Shown piece after piece: positions 52,435 through 58,871 of a stretch of 64,000 bases of DNA. The translations under genes and the position numbers were made by a program. Source of the DNA: Thermodesulfobacteriota bacterium (GTDB lineage: Bacteria > Desulfobacterota_D > UBA1144 > Nemesobacterales > UBA2774); the NCBI GenBank assembly GCA_965216785.1, contig OZ244197.1, forward strand, positions 288,001-352,000, in the 5' to 3' direction. Numbering within the stretch: position 1 is the stretch's first letter; every line of letters starts with the position of its first letter. The notes beneath the pieces are model-generated. The model saw only the letters and a program-made list of their open reading frames with translations, ran no database searches and was not told the DNA's origin.

Positions 52435-53235
52435 CTACCAGCTTAGAGTGAACATCAACCCTGAAGACTGTCCGTCGGTAAAAGGCAAAACGGTAAATCT
52501 GTTTCCCTTTTTATTTTTGTGCACCTTGGCTACTCCCCTTCCGATGGCCGTGCCGAGCGCCGCGCCGAACAGTACGTCGGATAGAAAATGTTTGTTATCG
52601 GAGATTCGGGACAGCCCTACAAACCCGGCAAAAGCGTAGAGCGGGATACCGATTTTATGACCGTACATTGAATCTACGGTAGCGGCGAGAGCAAAGCTGC
52701 CTGATGTGTGACCCGAAGGAAACGACGAGGTAAAACGCGTGCCGCTGCCGTCAGGTCTCTCTCTACCTACTGTAAGCTTGAGCACACTTGTGCTGAAGGC
52801 TGTTAAAATATTCGCCTCAAAAAGAGCCTTTGCCGTCTCTATAAGTTTCTCATCGCCAGAGCTGGAACCTATTAAAAATAAAGCAGTATTGATACCGGCG
52901 AGTGTGAGTGCGTTTCCGCCTATATCACCGATATCACCGAATTTACCTAAAGAGTTATTCAGACTATCCTGGATTTCTCGGTCGGCATCTGTTTGGGAAA
53001 GCAGTAGAGACGCCCCCGTAGCAGTGCCTAAAATAGCGAGGTTCCAGCCCCTAAATGTATTACTCGCGCCGAGAAGTAGGTTTTTAGGAAGGGTCTGGGT
53101 TAAGTAAGTCTTATAATTTTCTTCTCCCGATTCTCCGTACTCAAGCTCCTCCGCTGAAGAACCCGGCAAGAGTAGAAAGATATATAGAGAAATTGCGATT
53201 AATAGCTTTACAATAAAATGCAGTGCTGTCTGCAC
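52435..53235 (-). CDS. PAP2-family phosphatase
   Basis: KLTVGRERP, SFPSGH, SRISDNKHFLSDV. The track start (53295) lies inside the promoter, so GTG at 53235 is preferred. Confidence 0.9.
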   Translation of the reverse strand: MQTALHFIVKLLIAISLYIFLLLPGSSAEELEYGESGEENYKTYLTQTLPKNLLLGASNTFRGWNLAILGTATGASLLLSQTDADREIQDSLNNSLGKFGDIGDIGGNALTLAGINTALFLIGSSSGDEKLIETAKALFEANILTAFSTSVLKLTVGRERPDGSGTRFTSSFPSGHTSGSFALAATVDSMYGHKIGIPLYAFAGFVGLSRISDNKHFLSDVLFGAALGTAIGRGVAKVHKNKKGNRFTVLPFTDGQSSGLMFTLSW

Positions 53236-53270
53236 TATATGATCTATAGTAGCCGCCCCCCTAGAGAACC

Positions 53271-53324
53271 AGAGTAAAGAGCCACTATTACACAATCATT
53301 ACGTGAAAATTACATTACTGTAAT
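53271..53324 (-). promoter_or_regulatory. Response-regulator box array plus -10 for the PAP2 gene
   Basis: Minus strand ATTAC-N6-GTAAT-N6-GTAAT-N6-GTAAT-N10-TACTCT. Confidence 0.75.
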
Positions 53325-53495
53325 ATTCAGGATATTTACCGTTAAATGATAGAATGAGGAATTATAATATAGTAGAATCATAATATATTAGGGTTAAGTA
53401 TCTTACTCCTATGCGTAAGTAATGACGGTAACTTAAGATTACTTTTTACAGCTGTAATTGAGATTCAACGATGGCGATGGGCTAGAGCGGGCTAA

Positions 53496-54785
53496 ATGAT
53501 GAAAATCAACTATAAGGTGCTTTCTATCATGACAGTCTTTATATTTTTACTCTTGCTTCCTACCGAATCCTACGGACAGGCGCGCAAAGCCCGTTCGGAA
53601 GGCTTTGACCCAAACGAACCCCCGGAGACAAGGTTTAAAATTGCCCCCTACCTTACGTTCGGAGCTCAGATTGAGGTTGAGTATAAGCTCGACAGGAACG
53701 TGGACCTGGACGGCTCTACAGATGAAGACCTTTCCACAATAGAGCCTGAAGTGAATCTTGCTTTCTCCTTTGATCCGTTCAGCTTCCTTCAGGTGTTCGC
53801 GAACTTTAAGCTCGGCTTGGAATTTGAGATAGAGGACGGCCGGAAACAAAAAGACCGCTCGGTGTTTGAAGTCGAGGAAGCCTATCTTTTTCTAAAAGAT
53901 TTATTTGATGACAGGTTTTCACTTCAAATCGGACGTCAGCAGTTTGATGACGAAAGACAGTGGCTTTATGACGCAGAGCTTGACGGGGTTAGAGCTTTTA
54001 TTTTGACTTATGGCGTTGTTACCCAGCTTTCCGTGAGCCGGGGCGGTCTCGTAAATAGGGATCTTTTGAGAGAGAGCGCCGGTGACAAGATAAATAACTA
54101 TATTGCTTATTCGACTTATTTCTTTAACGAGGATACAAACGTGGCGGCATACTTTGTGGCCCGTGATGATACCACGGGTGAGAACGACAGCCCTATATTT
54201 ATCGGGATTCACTCTGACGGAGAGGCTACTGACAGTCTGGATTACTGGATAGAGCTTGCCTATGTGACAGGGGAGGAAGGTACGAATAATTTAAGTGGGT
54301 TCGGGTTTGATATAGGTACGGTTTACGCTTTTGACACCTTGCTCGAGCCCTCAATTACGCTCGGATACGCGTTTGGGACCGAGGAATTCCGTCAGACGGG
54401 GCTTCAGAGTAACGAAGGGGATTTTAATGGTGTGGTTGATTTCCTTTATTACGGAGAGCTGTTTGACCCGGAGCTTAGCAATCTTTCTATATTGACAGGG
54501 GATGTAGGAATTCTTCCTACTGAGGAAACCTCTATTGACCTCGTATATCACTACTACTTTCAGACTGAGGCTTCGGATGAAATTAGGGAATCAACACTTG
54601 AAGCCGAGCCTGACGGAGTGAACAAGAGTCTTGGGAGCGAGATCGATCTGATACTCGGGTTCGAGCAGAAAAGTGAAAAAATCGCGGCTGCTTTATCTTT
54701 TGGATTCTTCTTTCCAGGAAGCGCTTTCCCTAATGACGCTGTGAACGCTTTTTCAACAAAACTTATTCTGTCGTATGAATTCTAG
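53496..54785 (+). CDS. Alginate-export (AlgE-like) outer membrane beta-barrel
   Basis: Signal peptide, EAYL, GRQQF.DERQWLYD.ELDG, FRQTGLQ.N, YYGELFDPELSNL, terminal YEF. Confidence 0.82.
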   Translation: MMKINYKVLSIMTVFIFLLLLPTESYGQARKARSEGFDPNEPPETRFKIAPYLTFGAQIEVEYKLDRNVDLDGSTDEDLSTIEPEVNLAFSFDPFSFLQVFANFKLGLEFEIEDGRKQKDRSVFEVEEAYLFLKDLFDDRFSLQIGRQQFDDERQWLYDAELDGVRAFILTYGVVTQLSVSRGGLVNRDLLRESAGDKINNYIAYSTYFFNEDTNVAAYFVARDDTTGENDSPIFIGIHSDGEATDSLDYWIELAYVTGEEGTNNLSGFGFDIGTVYAFDTLLEPSITLGYAFGTEEFRQTGLQSNEGDFNGVVDFLYYGELFDPELSNLSILTGDVGILPTEETSIDLVYHYYFQTEASDEIRESTLEAEPDGVNKSLGSEIDLILGFEQKSEKIAAALSFGFFFPGSAFPNDAVNAFSTKLILSYEF

Positions 54786-54842
54786 CGAAATAAGTTTAAG
54801 TAGGCTTGCGTATGAATAAAAAATGTGTAAGAAGGTTAAATT

Positions 54843-55517
54843 ATGCGGGTATTGGTTATAGAGGACGATAAAAAGATAGCCTCCTTTATTAATAAGGGCT
54901 TAAAACAGGCGGGATTTGCGGTAGACCACGCCGAAGATGGAGAGGAGGGTCTGAGCCTGGCGCTTCATGAGTCATACGACGCAGCAGTTGTAGACATCAT
55001 GCTTCCTAAGCTAGACGGGCTGAGCGTTATAGAAGAGCTGAGGAGAAGCAAGGTCAATACCCCCGTAATAATACTCAGCGCAAAACGCTCGGTGGACGAT
55101 AGGATCAGGGGGCTTGAAAGCGGGAGCGATGACTATCTTACAAAGCCGTTTTCGTTCTCAGAGCTTCTGGCACGCATATACGCACTTATCAGACGGGCGA
55201 GCGGGGCGGCTGAATCGACACGACTGAGCGTCGGCAGCCTTACGATGGACATACTCAACCGCGAAGTCATAAGAGATGATAAGAATATAAATCTGCAGCC
55301 GCGGGAATTCACCCTTCTCGAATACTTTATGCGGAGCGCCGGGCGGGTGCTTTCGAAGACCCTCATAATGGAGCACGTATATGATTATAACTTCGACCCG
55401 CAGACCAATGTCGTGGACGTGCTAGTTTGCAGGCTCCGTAACAAAGTGGACAAAGGATTTGAAAAGAAGATGATCCATACCATAAGAGGTGTTGGCTATG
55501 TTCTTAAAGAACCCTAA
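54843..55517 (+). CDS. OmpR-family response regulator (CusR/CopR-like)
   Basis: IEDD, DIMLP, DDYLTKPF, NVVDVLVCRLRNK, TIRGVGY. Confidence 0.95.
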   Translation: MRVLVIEDDKKIASFINKGLKQAGFAVDHAEDGEEGLSLALHESYDAAVVDIMLPKLDGLSVIEELRRSKVNTPVIILSAKRSVDDRIRGLESGSDDYLTKPFSFSELLARIYALIRRASGAAESTRLSVGSLTMDILNREVIRDDKNINLQPREFTLLEYFMRSAGRVLSKTLIMEHVYDYNFDPQTNVVDVLVCRLRNKVDKGFEKKMIHTIRGVGYVLKEP

Positions 55518-56883
55518 ACTGCTCTTTAAATCAAACAGCTTCAGGATGATAACGTGGTACACGGTGTTCTTTGTCCTGAGCTCCCTTATTGTAAACATCT
55601 ACGCATACTCGGTGATATCTAAATTTATATATGAGCAGAGTAGAGAGGAAGTAGGGGAGGATATAGAGGAGCTAAGGGATATATATCTGGAAAGCGGCAC
55701 TGAGGCGCTTCATACAGAAGTGTTTGAAGACGCGAACGACCCTTTCATAGTACGAATGGTCACAAAACAAGGGGATACGGCGCTGCTGAGAATCCCGCAA
55801 GATTGGGAGGGCGTTAACCTTGCGCAAATGGATCAAACACTTTACTCCCAGTATACACAGTGGGCATATCTTACAGAAAGCGGGATGGAGGAGCGGATTG
55901 AGTTTGCGACTCTAGGAGTATCGGATGGCTCGATATTACAGATCGGACAAGAAATTGACGCAAGAGAAGACCTCTTGAGCCGTATACGCCGGGTATACCT
56001 CTTTTCTCTGATTCCTATCCTGGTCCTTGGCTATTTAGGCGGGCTGTTCGTAGCCGACCGTGCTCTTAACCCTGTCAGACAGCTCATATCTACGCTCAAT
56101 TCCATAGTGGAAAGCGGGAAAATGAACGTCAGGGTACCAGTGCCTGAGACCGATGAACTGTACAGAGAGCTGATATCGCTCTTTAACACTATGCTCAGTA
56201 AAATAGAGACCTTGGTTAACGGAATGAGGGGAGTGCTGGATAATGTTGCGCACGATTTGAGGACGCCGATGACAAGATTTAGAGGCACTGCCGAGGTAGC
56301 GCTCGCGTCAGAGCAAAATGGGGAGACGCTACGCGAGGCCCTGGTTGATTGCGTTGAGGAATCTGAGCGAATCTTAATAATGCTGAATACTCTGATGGAC
56401 GTCTCGGAAGCGGAGACGGGAGCCATGAAGCTTAACCCAGAAAAGATGAACGTGACTCCGCTTATTGAAGACATAGTAGACCTCTACGACTATGTTGCTG
56501 AGGAAAAAGGCGTTACTGTCAAAACCGGCTTCCCGGAAGAGATTTATCTCACAGCCGACCGTAACCGTTTGCGCCAGGTGCTGGCAAACCTGCTTGATAA
56601 CGCCATTAAGTACACACCTGCCGGAGGGAGAGTAGACGTCGAAGCCAGCCGGGAAGACAAAGAAGTAAAAATCACGATAAAAGACACCGGGGTCGGCATA
56701 TCCGACAAAGAGCTCGACAACATTTGGGACAGGCTTTACCGGGGCGATAAAAGCAGGACTCAAAGAGGGCTCGGCCTCGGGCTTAGCCTGGTCAAAGCTA
56801 TCGTCGGGGCTCACAGGGGATACGTCGAGGTCCTGAGCAAGCCCGGCTCGGGCTCGGTATTTTCAGTACACTTGCCTGCGTAA
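55498..56883 (+). CDS. Sensor histidine kinase (two TM, HAMP, HisKA, HATPase)
   Basis: AHDLRTP, NLLDNAIKY, DTGVG, GLGLGL; overlaps the regulator stop codon. Confidence 0.95.
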   Translation: MFLKNPKLLFKSNSFRMITWYTVFFVLSSLIVNIYAYSVISKFIYEQSREEVGEDIEELRDIYLESGTEALHTEVFEDANDPFIVRMVTKQGDTALLRIPQDWEGVNLAQMDQTLYSQYTQWAYLTESGMEERIEFATLGVSDGSILQIGQEIDAREDLLSRIRRVYLFSLIPILVLGYLGGLFVADRALNPVRQLISTLNSIVESGKMNVRVPVPETDELYRELISLFNTMLSKIETLVNGMRGVLDNVAHDLRTPMTRFRGTAEVALASEQNGETLREALVDCVEESERILIMLNTLMDVSEAETGAMKLNPEKMNVTPLIEDIVDLYDYVAEEKGVTVKTGFPEEIYLTADRNRLRQVLANLLDNAIKYTPAGGRVDVEASREDKEVKITIKDTGVGISDKELDNIWDRLYRGDKSRTQRGLGLGLSLVKAIVGAHRGYVEVLSKPGSGSVFSVHLPA

Positions 56884-56924
56884 AGTAGCCTTTCAGATTG
56901 TTTCTACTATCTCCACCCTGAATT

Positions 56925-56978
56925 ATTTCAAAACCGTAATGTTAGGGAAATATTCCCGTAATCCTCTCCTGATAGTCT
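56925..56978 (+). promoter_or_regulatory. Response-regulator box array plus extended -10
   Basis: ATTTC-N6-GTAAT-N6-GAAAT-N6-GTAAT-N10-TAGTCT, with TG before the -10. Confidence 0.75.
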
Positions 56979-57008
56979 GTATGTAAAATCTAAATCAGGA
57001 GGTGTTTT

Positions 57009-57815
57009 ATGAGACGTATAAAGGCGTTTGGGTTTATTTCCGACGGTTTTAGAATGCGGGGGCGTATCGGGTTATTTGCTCTACTTTTGGCGGCGGTATT
57101 CGTCATGGGTCTCTCAGGAACCGCTGAGGCATTTGAAGACGCCGAGGTTAGGATCGAGACAAATTCCACCGATGGAGACTCCGGACTTCAGCTCTTTTTT
57201 GACGGAGAGCCATGGAAGAGAACCATAGTCAGGGGACCTGACGGGCGTATCGTATTTTGGGTTACCAACCTAGGGAAGCTGAGGAGATTCGGCACTACCG
57301 AGAATTTTATGGAGAGTAACGAGCCTAACTACGAGGAAGAAATGACCCTGCCCGAGATCCTCGAGTTTTTACCCGCGGGTGAATATAAGTTCCACGGTAG
57401 AACTGTCGACAACGAAAAACTATTTGCTACAGCGACATTAACTCATGACTTACCGTGCGGACCCGTAGTTACCTCGCCTGTATCACCGGATCCGGAAGAA
57501 GACCCTGAGCTGGACCCGAGCATGCCGGTAATTTCGTGGGAGGCGGTAGTGAACAAGATCGATACGGAATCTGATTTCGGGGAGTGCGATGAAGCAGACT
57601 TTGATATTACTGTCACCGGTTACGAGGTCGTGGTAGAAAATGAGAGCACAGACCCCACGGAAACGTTCACTATAAAACTTCCGGCGGGAGTGCTTCAGGT
57701 AACGCTTCCTCCGGAATTTGTTATCCCCGGCGATGATTATAAATTCGAAATACTCGCGATCGAGGAAAGCGGGAATCAGACAATAACTGAAAGTAACTTT
57801 ACGGCTATTGAATAG
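57009..57815 (+). CDS. Secreted acidic hypothetical protein, C-terminal beta-sandwich (Fn3-like)
   Basis: AGGAGG RBS; signal peptide ending AEA; ETNSTDGDSG...DGEPW motif; ends ILAIEESGNQTITE. Confidence 0.85.
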   Translation: MRRIKAFGFISDGFRMRGRIGLFALLLAAVFVMGLSGTAEAFEDAEVRIETNSTDGDSGLQLFFDGEPWKRTIVRGPDGRIVFWVTNLGKLRRFGTTENFMESNEPNYEEEMTLPEILEFLPAGEYKFHGRTVDNEKLFATATLTHDLPCGPVVTSPVSPDPEEDPELDPSMPVISWEAVVNKIDTESDFGECDEADFDITVTGYEVVVENESTDPTETFTIKLPAGVLQVTLPPEFVIPGDDYKFEILAIEESGNQTITESNFTAIE

Positions 57816-57844
57816 CCAATAAATTGAATAGCCCCTTTAAGGGT

Positions 57845-57904
57845 AAAGGGACCTCTCTTAACAGTATTGTTGCTGGAAGGGCAGCGGAGGGAGAGGTCCC
57901 CTTT
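57845..57904 (+). terminator. Branched stem-loop after the 57009 gene (terminator or structured RNA)
   Basis: GGGACCTCTC/GAGAGGTCCC 10-bp stem enclosing two small hairpins; only a short T tail. Confidence 0.45.
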
Positions 57905-58056
57905 CATATTGATTGCCAGCCCTAATATCTAAATGCTTTTAAACACAGCCCACCTTCTCTCTCATTATATATTTACCACCCCGGCCACACCTTCCCCATC
58001 GGCCGGGGTGTATCCCCGAGAAAGAGGTTTGGATTGCGTATGAAATGTGCAGGTTC

Positions 58057-58110
58057 CTTTCCGTTTTGTAATGATTGTGAAAGATTCGCGTAATTCTAGT
58101 TTGCTATTCT
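58057..58110 (+). promoter_or_regulatory. Response-regulator box array plus extended -10
   Basis: CTTTC-N6-GTAAT-N6-GAAAG-N6-GTAAT-N10-TATTCT, with TG before the -10. Confidence 0.75.
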
Positions 58111-58145: not shown

Positions 58146-58871
58146 ATGAAGCGTTTAATTAGCCTAACGGCTTTATTGGTAACTATATCTATTCTGTCCA
58201 TTGGCGGCTGCAGCAGCAGCGGGGGCGGGGGAGGTAACAACGGGGGATGTCCTGAAACAAACACGAGTATAGCTGTCTGTGACCCGGAGACCGGAGTGTT
58301 CTCATTAACCATAGATAACGGTTTCTTCCCCCTGGTCGTGGGCGATGAGCTGGTGCTCGAAGGCGAGGACGATGAAGGCACTTTCATTGAGATTATTATT
58401 ACAGTTCTTGATGAGACGGAAGTAGTTGCCGGGGTAACCACAAGGGTTGTGGAGGAAGCAGAATTCGAGGATGGAGAAATGGTCGAGGTCTCAAGGAATT
58501 TCTTCGCTCAGGCCCAGGACGGCACCGTTTGCTACTTCGGTGAAGACGTGGACGATTTTGAGGACGGGATGATAGTCGGGCACGAAGGGGCATGGCGTGC
58601 CGGAGAGGACGGGAACCTGCCGGGAATAATTATGCCGGGGAATCCACAGGTCGGCATGGTGTTTAGTCAGGAAGTAGCGCCCGGCATAGCCGAGGACCAG
58701 GCCGAGATACTGCTTTTCGGCGAGACTATTGACGTGCCTGCAGGAGAGTTCAGTGATACGCTTACCACACTTGATTGTAACCCGCAGGAGAACGGCTCTA
58801 CAGATGAAAAGGTTTACATAAGAGGAATCGGGCTTGCTATCGATGAAGATGCAGAGCTCGTATCCTTTTAG
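58146..58871 (+). CDS. Highly acidic lipoprotein of unknown function
   Basis: GAGGAGG RBS, lipobox IGGC, Ser/Gly linker; IDN.FFPL, FAQ..DG.V.YFGE, WRAG.DG..PGIIMP. Confidence 0.88.
   Translation: MKRLISLTALLVTISILSIGGCSSSGGGGGNNGGCPETNTSIAVCDPETGVFSLTIDNGFFPLVVGDELVLEGEDDEGTFIEIIITVLDETEVVAGVTTRVVEEAEFEDGEMVEVSRNFFAQAQDGTVCYFGEDVDDFEDGMIVGHEGAWRAGEDGNLPGIIMPGNPQVGMVFSQEVAPGIAEDQAEILLFGETIDVPAGEFSDTLTTLDCNPQENGSTDEKVYIRGIGLAIDEDAELVSF

What the first reader, a model, noticed from the sequence alone, without database searches (positions are those of the whole stretch)
53271..58110. Three promoters with the same 54-bp architecture define the regulator binding site
Seen, aligned without gaps. 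PAP2 (minus, 53324-53271): ATTAC-N6-GTAAT-N6-GTAAT-N6-GTAAT-N10-TACTCT. Gene 57009 (56925-56978): ATTTC-N6-GTAAT-N6-GAAAT-N6-GTAAT-N10-TAGTCT. Gene 58146 (58057-58110): CTTTC-N6-GTAAT-N6-GAAAG-N6-GTAAT-N10-TATTCT. No -35 hexamer is present. Known: OmpR/PhoB regulators bind direct repeats at 10-11 bp pitch over the -35 region, and CusR/CopR boxes are palindromic. Inference: this is a hybrid site, a cop-box-like palindrome extended by two direct repeats, for the adjacent regulator. It can be used to predict the regulon.
Basis: partly seen in the sequence, partly recalled or inferred. Interest (0 to 1): 0.72.

Follow-up and report, generated by a model that had tools for sequence, protein, structure and literature searches.

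The report
CzcR-type activator boxes at four promoters
Three neighbouring genes share an identically spaced upstream DNA motif, conserved in related bacteria, that is likely the binding site of the adjacent metal-sensor-type regulator; the design is already known from CzcR, CusR and AgrR, but the genes it likely switches on here are uncharacterised, very acidic envelope proteins.

Summary
Observation confirmed base for base. A matrix trained only on relatives scores these three sites 33-35 bits; the next best in the 3.12-Mb genome scores 14. The consensus pattern hits 29 of 120 genomes of the phylum, its reversed control none. Upstream of orthologous genes, the -10 at exactly 10 bp and the inverted first half-site each appeared in 31 of 31 sites picked without them. 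All 16 relatives with the regulator's orthologue carry the motif; PhoB does not track it. The last repeat-to--10 gap equals E. coli Pho boxes. Additions: the PAP2 palindrome likely also drives a conserved divergent promoter for the porin-regulator-kinase operon, and the predicted regulon in this genome is purely local. The kinase sensor is acidic without conserved His/Met/Cys, so the signal is likely a hard cation rather than Cu/Ag (untested). Binding and start sites are untested. New member of a known kind.

The parts
53271..53324 (-). Promoter 1 (PAP2): ATTAC 53324-53320, GTAAT 53313-53309, GTAAT 53302-53298, GTAAT 53291-53287, -10-like TACTCT 53276-53271
   Evidence: same architecture before PAP2 orthologues in L025, L059, L057, L058
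53309..53324 (.). Perfect palindrome ATTAC-N6-GTAAT, likely shared by the PAP2 promoter and the divergent porin-regulator-kinase promoter
53350..53378 (+).
   Evidence: same offsets in 11 of 12 chosen loci (window included), one shifted by 1 bp; for coordinates
56925..56978 (+). Promoter 2 (gene 57009): ATTTC 56925-29, GTAAT 56936-40, GAAAT 56947-51, GTAAT 56958-62, TAGTCT 56973-78
58057..58110 (+). Promoter 3 (gene 58146): CTTTC 58057-61, GTAAT 58068-72, GAAAG 58079-83, GTAAT 58090-94, TATTCT 58105-10
52435..53295 (-). PAP2-superfamily phosphatase (PF01569); true start likely downstream of 53270
53496..54785 (+). Alginate-export-family (AlgE-like) outer-membrane porin, acidic
54843..55517 (+). 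OmpR/PhoB-family response regulator, nearest to the CusR/CzcR/HprR group (TIGR01387 270.2 bits, cut-off 279.2); predicted binder
55489..56883 (+). Sensor histidine kinase (TIGR01386 215.3 bits, cut-off 292.55); periplasmic domain with 15 conserved Asp/Glu columns and no conserved His or Cys
57009..57815 (+). Uncharacterised secreted acidic protein (X57); predicted two beta-sandwich domains, the C-terminal one fibronectin type III-like
57830..57903 (+). Two hairpins between X57 and Y58, likely a terminator that makes promoter 3 necessary
58146..58871 (+). Uncharacterised acidic predicted lipoprotein (Y58); YmcC/DUF3108-like open beta-sheet model; 4,714 homologues

Best explanation
The three motifs are conserved, identically spaced promoter elements that likely bind the adjacent CusR/CzcR-like response regulator (54843-55517), which would activate PAP2, X57 and Y58 as a class II activator and likely its own porin-regulator-kinase operon from the same palindrome. 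Mechanism, step by step: (1, shown) four pentamers lie at 11-bp pitch on one helix face, the first inverted, the last 10 bp before a TAnnnT, with no -35 hexamer; (2, inferred from AgrR/CzcR) a phosphorylated dimer binds head-to-head on the ATTAC-N6-GTAAT palindrome, centred near -52.5; (3, inferred) a second pair extends head-to-tail over half-sites 3 and 4 (about -38 to -23), which have E. coli Pho-box geometry and would replace the -35 element by contacting sigma-70 region 4; (4, inferred) from the other strand the palindrome lies near -68.5 of a weak sigma-70 promoter for porin-regulator-kinase and would give positive autoregulation; (5, inferred, about 45%) the kinase senses a hard cation (Ca2+, Fe2+, Mn2+ or similar) through carboxylates and the regulon deploys acidic cation-binding envelope proteins, a porin and a lipid phosphatase.
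For: Only three hits genome-wide, all within 4.9 kb of the regulator. Genome has two OmpR-family regulators, this one and a PhoB-like one. Among 60 relatives, 20 have the motif; 16 of 16 with the regulator orthologue (66% or more identity) have it; the other 4 have contigs ending at or inside the locus; 0 of 40 motif-negative genomes have the orthologue, while 33 of those 40 have the PhoB-like one. Hold-out: of 36 upstream regions of X57/Y58 orthologues, 35 usable, 31 had a site; TAnnnT at N10 in 31 of 31 when the matrix lacked the -10 (0 at N4-9 and N11-14), nTTnC at the N6 offset in 31 of 31 when the matrix lacked it; six genus labels. In 8 further genomes hit by the fixed pattern, 9 of 11 sites precede X57, Y58 or the regulator itself (two of these contigs had been seen). 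An off-locus hit in G013 precedes a Y58 paralogue. In four relatives a 44-aa ORF starts 8-9 nt after the -10, as expected if transcription starts there. Literature: CzcR box ATTAC-N6-GTAAT (PMC8469834, PMC8025907, passages); HprR/CusR box CATTACAAAATTGTAATG (PMC9302797, passage); AgrR inverted plus direct repeats both needed, class II, poor -35 (PMC7380067); one palindrome driving both divergent operons (PMC11195947). E. coli cusC and hiuH show palindrome, a repeat at 11 bp and a TAnnnT one base further; pstS and phoA show the 10-bp gap. Signal: Y58 ranks 2nd, X57 23rd and the porin 33rd in net acidity of 2,373 ORFs; kinase sensor 21-28% D+E in 11 orthologues against 14% with 9 His in CusS; BqsS/CarS binds Fe2+ through Glu (PMC12424716, abstract).
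Against: No binding, footprint or TSS data. Motif and regulator sit in one cassette, so co-occurrence partly reflects linkage, and the relatives are not independent; spacer columns are also partly conserved. Regulator and kinase fall below the curated heavy-metal family cut-offs. In genera g3 and g6 the repeat tail points at PEP carboxylase with no TAnnnT at N10, so the tail is not always tied to a -10. The divergent promoter is not seen at that offset in 6 other rows (paralogous or rearranged systems and the two E. coli loci), and it has its own -35-like hexamer, so it could be constitutive or repressed. 4 of 35 orthologue upstream regions have no site. The signal is inferred from composition only.
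Confidence: 0.87

Rival explanations
1. The sites are Pho boxes read by the PhoB-like regulator elsewhere in the genome; a phosphatase and a porin would fit phosphate starvation.
For: Half-sites 3-4 and the 10-bp gap copy the geometry of E. coli pstS and phoA (PMC1906773 passage); GTAAT is one base from GTCAT; a PhoB-like regulator exists.
Against: The PhoB-like regulator is in 52 of 60 relatives, the motif in 20, and G044 has the motif but no PhoB-like hit. The genome's pstS and phoB upstream regions lack the motif; one pstS has TTAAC repeats instead. Pho boxes as described have no inverted half-site, which is conserved here in 31 of 31.
Confidence: 0.04
2. The adjacent regulator binds, but only the palindrome (or only the three direct repeats) matters; the rest is inherited similarity from duplicated promoters.
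For: CzcR3 footprints of about 25 bp cover only the palindrome at czcC1/czcC2 (PMC8469834 passage). The three promoters may descend from one copy; half-site 1 is degenerate at two sites.
Against: Across 35 non-window sites every pentamer keeps near-invariant G/AA or TT/C columns while spacer columns are far more variable; spacings never vary; in AgrR both kinds of repeat were needed (PMC7380067).
Confidence: 0.07
3. The system is an ordinary copper/silver/zinc responsive CusRS/CzcRS orthologue, and the targets are metal-resistance accessories (a rival for the signal only).
For: Best family hits are the heavy-metal regulator and kinase models; the box equals the CzcR box; in G044 a site precedes an outer-membrane efflux/RND operon.
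Against: No conserved His or Cys in the sensor and Met at one column in 5 of 11 only; both proteins are under the family cut-offs, whereas canonical regulators in L060 and L063 pass; no efflux genes among the window's targets.
Confidence: 0.25
4. Chance similarity in AT-rich intergenic DNA.
For: GTAAT is frequent (7,716 copies on both strands).
Against:: unique in the genome, conserved with fixed spacing, control pattern 0 in 120 genomes.
Confidence: 0.005

Closest known systems
AgrR box of Cupriavidus metallidurans (PMC7380067; abstract, passages and whole Discussion read)
   Same: [quoted passage not shown]
   Different: AgrR repeats are optional, variable and on either side, core near -43.5 or slightly upstream; here two promoter-proximal repeats are fixed in 31 of 31 orthologous sites and the core is predicted near -52.5. 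Targets differ.
CzcR box of Pseudomonas (PMC8469834, PMC8025907; passages)
   Same: ATTAC-N6-GTAAT core with the GTAAT half better conserved than the upstream half.
   Different: Described as a 16-bp site; Zn/Cd signal and czcCBA efflux targets, absent from this locus.
E. coli CusR/HprR boxes at cusC and hiuH (PMC9302797, PMC11195947 passages; sequences read)
   Same: Palindrome between a divergent regulator operon and target; a further half-site at 11-bp pitch; TAnnnT at nearly the same distance (49 against 48 bp from the first pentamer; my pattern assignment).
   Different: Fourth half-site not recognisable in E. coli; regulator identity 45%; CusS sensor is His/Met-rich, this one is not.
E. 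coli Pho box (pstS, phoA; PMC1906773 passage)
   Same: Direct repeats at 11-bp pitch ending 10 bp before the -10, replacing the -35.
   Different: Half-site GTCAT/GTCAC, no inverted half-site, different regulator branch.
BqsS/CarS of Pseudomonas aeruginosa (PMC12424716; abstract only)
   Same: Precedent for a kinase that senses a cation (Fe2+) through periplasmic glutamates.
   Different: No sequence comparison was made here; a lead for the signal only.

Membership tests
CusR/CzcR/AgrR-type operator | 16-bp inverted repeat ATTAC-N6-GTAAT (perfect or imperfect) | tested here: met
   Perfect at the PAP2 site, 4/5 and 3/5 upstream halves at the others; nTTnC conserved 31 of 31 in a hold-out test
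CusR/CzcR/AgrR-type operator | [quoted passage not shown] | tested here: met
   Two repeats at 11-bp pitch in all three sites and in 35 non-window sites
CusR/CzcR/AgrR-type operator | Good -10, poor -35, site overlapping the -35 region | tested here: met
   TAnnnT at N10 31 of 31; -35 matches 3, 2, 2 of 6. TSS itself not mapped.
CusR/CzcR/AgrR-type operator | Direct binding by the cognate regulator | not testable with these tools
   Only indirect co-occurrence
Heavy-metal response regulator subfamily TIGR01387 | Score at or above curated cut-off 279.2 | tested here: not met
   270.2 bits; still the best of 96 families, next HprR 237.8 and CusR 236.5
Heavy-metal sensor kinase subfamily TIGR01386 | Score at or above curated cut-off 292.55 | tested here: not met
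   215.3 bits
CusS-type Cu/Ag sensor | His/Met-rich periplasmic sensor | tested here: not met
   0-2 His, no Cys, 15 conserved acidic columns in 11 orthologues; CusS has 9 His and 7 Met in the same span
Pho box / PhoB regulon | 11-bp repeats ending 10 bp before the -10 | tested here: met
Pho box / PhoB regulon | Same motif at pstS and tracking with PhoB | tested here: not met

The most novel reading that the evidence does not exclude
An undescribed branch of the CusR/CzcR family has traded soft-metal sensing for a carboxylate sensor of a hard cation (Ca2+, Fe2+, Mn2+, lanthanide or uranyl) and drives a compact envelope module built on two large uncharacterised, extremely acidic protein families; its rigid operator, a head-to-head dimer site fused to a Pho-box-like head-to-tail pair, is an ideal substrate for a four-protomer OmpR-family activation complex and marks the module in several phyla.
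Probability: 0.3. Interest if true: 0.55.

Novelty: new member of a known kind. Interest (0 to 1): 0.32.

Why it matters
It gives a well-supported operator and a small regulon for a two-component system of an uncultured lineage (closest records are labelled Candidatus Dadabacteria / Thermodesulfobacteriota), and ties two widespread hypothetical protein families (4,714 and 228 homologues) to one signal, so a single reporter screen could assign them a role. The fixed palindrome-plus-two-repeats layout is a clean case for asking how OmpR-family regulators combine head-to-head and head-to-tail binding. The operator design itself would not surprise a specialist.

Tried and rejected
Regulon extension in this genome: none; next matrix score 14 against 33-35, and the partial hit TTTAC-N6-GTAAT-N6-GTAAT at G000:2450280 lacks half-site 4 and the -10, not followed further. 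A four-site motif facing the porin: not found in any of 17 porin rows apart from one truncation artefact. One search has three rows whose upstream region was cut by a contig end and picked another site (X57 L031, porin L027, porin L053); one search drops such rows (1 of 36). My hiuH coordinate was off by one; corrected. Pfam and NCBIfam give nothing for X57 and Y58; PDB sequence search gives nothing for Y58 and weak fibronectin III hits for X57; folds give Y58 Z 10.6, rmsd 3.7 over 162 residues to a Parabacteroides lipoprotein 4fvs and X57 Z 10.1, rmsd 2.3 over 95 residues to FN3 domains: no function follows. The wide profile search for Y58 was still queued at the last look and the atlas search for X57 did not complete. 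Of 80 X57 loci across GTDB most, chiefly Actinomycetota and Acidobacteriota, have no site; recognisable sites outside the Dadabacteria-labelled records are few and weaker (L072, L074, L078, L083, L086: 9-17 bits). The 44-aa ORF has no match in this genome (best E 2.4). CpxR (10-bp pitch) and WalR boxes were considered from memory only and dropped because the genome has just two OmpR-family regulators. Paper searches for this regulon found nothing: alginate export + PAP2 + response regulator + regulon, 0 papers; Dadabacteria + two-component + response regulator, 2 unrelated listings; CusR + inverted repeat + direct repeat + GTAAT, 0. PMC10127602 passages held no motif data. The UzcR search was seen as a listing only. 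Garber 2018 and the Urano papers were not read; supplements were not opened and may describe longer sites. Earlier-finding look-ups returned nothing.
Full report
Observation. The three strings are present exactly as written. Aligned without gaps they share 24 of 54 columns. The pattern GTAAT-N17-GTAAT-N10-TAnnnT occurs three times in the 3.12-Mb single-contig genome, at these three places. Leave-one-out matrices over all 54 columns put the held-out site among the top 5, 3 and 3 of 6.2 million positions. The -35 position matches TTGACA at 3, 2 and 2 of 6.

Locus. PAP2 phosphatase on the minus strand; divergent from it an alginate-export-family porin, an OmpR-family regulator and a histidine kinase; then two genes without any Pfam or NCBIfam family, here X57 (57009) and Y58 (58146). 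The regulator's best family is the heavy-metal group TIGR01387 (270.2 bits, cut-off 279.2), followed by HprR and CusR; the kinase's best is TIGR01386 (215.3, cut-off 292.55). The genome has only one other OmpR-family regulator, PhoB-like. The closest records holding X57 are labelled Thermodesulfobacteriota, Deltaproteobacteria or Candidatus Dadabacteria.

Phylogenetic footprint. X57 is in 16 of 60 relatives and the regulator orthologue in 16; the cassette porin-regulator-kinase-X57-Y58 recurs with the same motif before X57, Y58 and PAP2. From 35 distinct non-window sites the near-invariant columns are TT and C of the inverted half-site, GTAA, G-AA, G-AA and the T, A, T of the -10, while spacers vary much more. 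Two hold-out tests remove circularity: of 36 upstream regions of X57 and Y58 orthologues, 35 were usable and 31 had a site; with the -10 left out of the matrix TAnnnT sat at exactly 10 bp in 31 of 31 and at no other spacing from 4 to 14; with the inverted half-site left out it sat at the 6-bp offset in 31 of 31; the sites span six genus labels. Kin are not independent, so these are not probabilities. The consensus pattern then hit 57 places in 29 of 120 genomes of the phylum and its reversed control none. In the eight genomes added by that search, 9 of 11 sites precede X57, Y58 or the regulator gene itself; one precedes an unrelated gene and one looks like chance; two of those contigs had already been seen. 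A matrix trained only on relatives scores the window's sites 35.5, 35.0 and 32.9 and the next best position in the genome 14.1, so the predicted regulon here is local.

Which regulator. Of 60 relatives 20 carry the motif. All 16 with the regulator orthologue are among them; G009, G016, G027 and G036 have contigs that end at or inside the cassette, with kinase fragments in the last three. None of the 40 motif-negative genomes has the orthologue; three have a more distant canonical heavy-metal regulator and 33 have the PhoB-like one, which G044 (motif-positive) lacks. The genome's pstS and phoB upstream regions do not carry the motif. G041 has X57 and Y58 but neither site nor regulator. In G063 the full four-site motif stands directly before the regulator gene. 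Linkage in one cassette weakens the co-occurrence argument, but no other candidate fits.

A fourth promoter. On the other strand of the PAP2 palindrome, TAGATT (TAGAAT in the window) lies 25 bp and TAGAAT 48 bp from the palindrome end, 17 bp apart, in 11 of 12 loci that I chose for having the palindrome upstream of the porin (window included; the twelfth is shifted by 1 bp); six further rows, from paralogous or rearranged systems and E. coli, do not show this offset. In E. coli cusR a TAGAAT lies 37 bp from the palindrome, one helical turn closer (my count). I infer a sigma-70 promoter for porin-regulator-kinase, with the palindrome centred near -68.5, and positive autoregulation as shown for a Pseudomonas CusR palindrome between divergent operons (PMC11195947, passages). 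The palindrome is kept even where the repeat tail faces PEP carboxylase and has lost the -10, which fits a role for it on the porin side.

Comparison with known systems. ATTAC-N6-GTAAT is the CzcR box (PMC8469834 and PMC8025907, passages) and the core of the HprR/CusR box at hiuH (PMC9302797, passage). For AgrR of C. metallidurans an imperfect ATTACA inverted repeat plus in-phase direct repeats, both required, acting as a class II activator at promoters with a good -10 and poor -35, is already published (PMC7380067, abstract, passages and Discussion). In E. coli sequence, cusC and hiuH have palindrome, a further half-site 11 bp on and a TAnnnT 49 bp from the first pentamer (48 here), and pstS and phoA have a 10-bp gap between last repeat and -10, the same as here (PMC1906773 passage). 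So the element works like an AgrR/CzcR operator whose promoter-proximal pair has Pho-box geometry. What differs is the rigidity of the two proximal repeats and the target genes. The proteins fail the curated family cut-offs narrowly (regulator) or clearly (kinase), so I file the operator as a member of the known kind but not the proteins as CusRS or CzcRS orthologues.

Mechanism. Shown: sequence, spacing, uniqueness, conservation. Inferred: a head-to-head dimer on the palindrome (centre about -52.5 if the start is 7 nt after the -10), a head-to-tail pair over about -38 to -23 replacing the -35 element, activation of three promoters, and autoregulation. Indirect support for the start site: in four relatives an extra copy of the motif is followed 8-9 nt after the -10 by the ATG of a conserved 44-residue ORF. 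Hairpins between X57 and Y58 explain why Y58 has its own promoter.

Signal and targets. The kinase's periplasmic domain is 21-28% Asp/Glu in 11 orthologues, has 15 conserved acidic columns, 0-2 His and no Cys, against 14% with 9 His and 7 Met in CusS. Y58, X57 and the porin rank 2nd, 23rd and 33rd in net acidity among 2,373 ORFs of 150 residues or more. Y58 has a lipoprotein-like N-terminus and a confident model (pLDDT 90.4) resembling YmcC/DUF3108-like lipoproteins; X57 (pLDDT 91.3) ends in a fibronectin III-like domain. Neither fold gives a function. My best guess, about 45%, is a hard-cation response in which acidic envelope proteins bind the cation; BqsS/CarS is a precedent for glutamate-based Fe2+ sensing (PMC12424716, abstract). 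A conventional Cu/Ag/Zn response (25%) or general envelope stress remain open. Paper searches for this regulon found nothing; the library omits most subscription papers.

Verdict. Confidence in the operator-regulator assignment 0.87; interest 0.32, carried mainly by the unassigned targets and signal.

Noticed in passing
window 53230-53270 (minus); L025, L059, L055: PAP2 orthologues have no ATG/GTG/TTG between the predicted -10 and the signal peptide in L025; a GG(T/C)GG followed 4-5 nt later by an in-frame ATA recurs in the window, L025 and L059, suggesting a non-canonical start codon.
   Followed up: partly
L022:4142, L025:6286, L027:8139, L031:7940 (all minus), L048:7688: An extra copy of the motif between X57 and Y58 precedes a near-leaderless 44-residue hydrophobic ORF; its start is ATA in L048; absent from the window's genome. 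Could be a small feedback regulator of the kinase.
   Followed up: partly
L021, L024, L026, L029, L036, L052, L054: In genera g3 and g6 the palindrome and repeat tail face PEP carboxylase instead of PAP2 and lack a -10 at 10 bp; possible repression, a shifted promoter or a relic.
   Followed up: partly
L051:17403 (G044), L157:7598 (G070): Sites before an outer-membrane efflux/RND operon and before an unrelated gene, possible lineage-specific regulon members.
   Followed up: no
G000:C1:971749-972200 (minus): The pstS upstream region has TTAAC repeats at 11-bp pitch, a candidate Pho box for this lineage.
   Followed up: no
window 55428-55430 region of the regulator (residue C196): The recognition helix reads DVLVCRLR with a Cys in all seven members of this branch aligned, where CusR, HprR and canonical relatives have Lys/Arg.
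   Followed up: no
window 53415-53458: Further GTAAT/GTAAC/ATTAC pentamers and a TTACAGCTGTAA palindrome in the porin leader, not at 11-bp pitch and not evidently conserved.
   Followed up: partly
L056, L057, L058 (G021, G013): A paralogous two-component system (regulator 63-65% identical) with related boxes before PAP2 and before an IPTL-CTERM protein.
   Followed up: no
G000:C1:2121237, 2179547, 2247633: Three near-identical copies of a sequence containing GTAAT-N6-GTAAT, probably ends of a repeated mobile element, not this operator.
   Followed up: no
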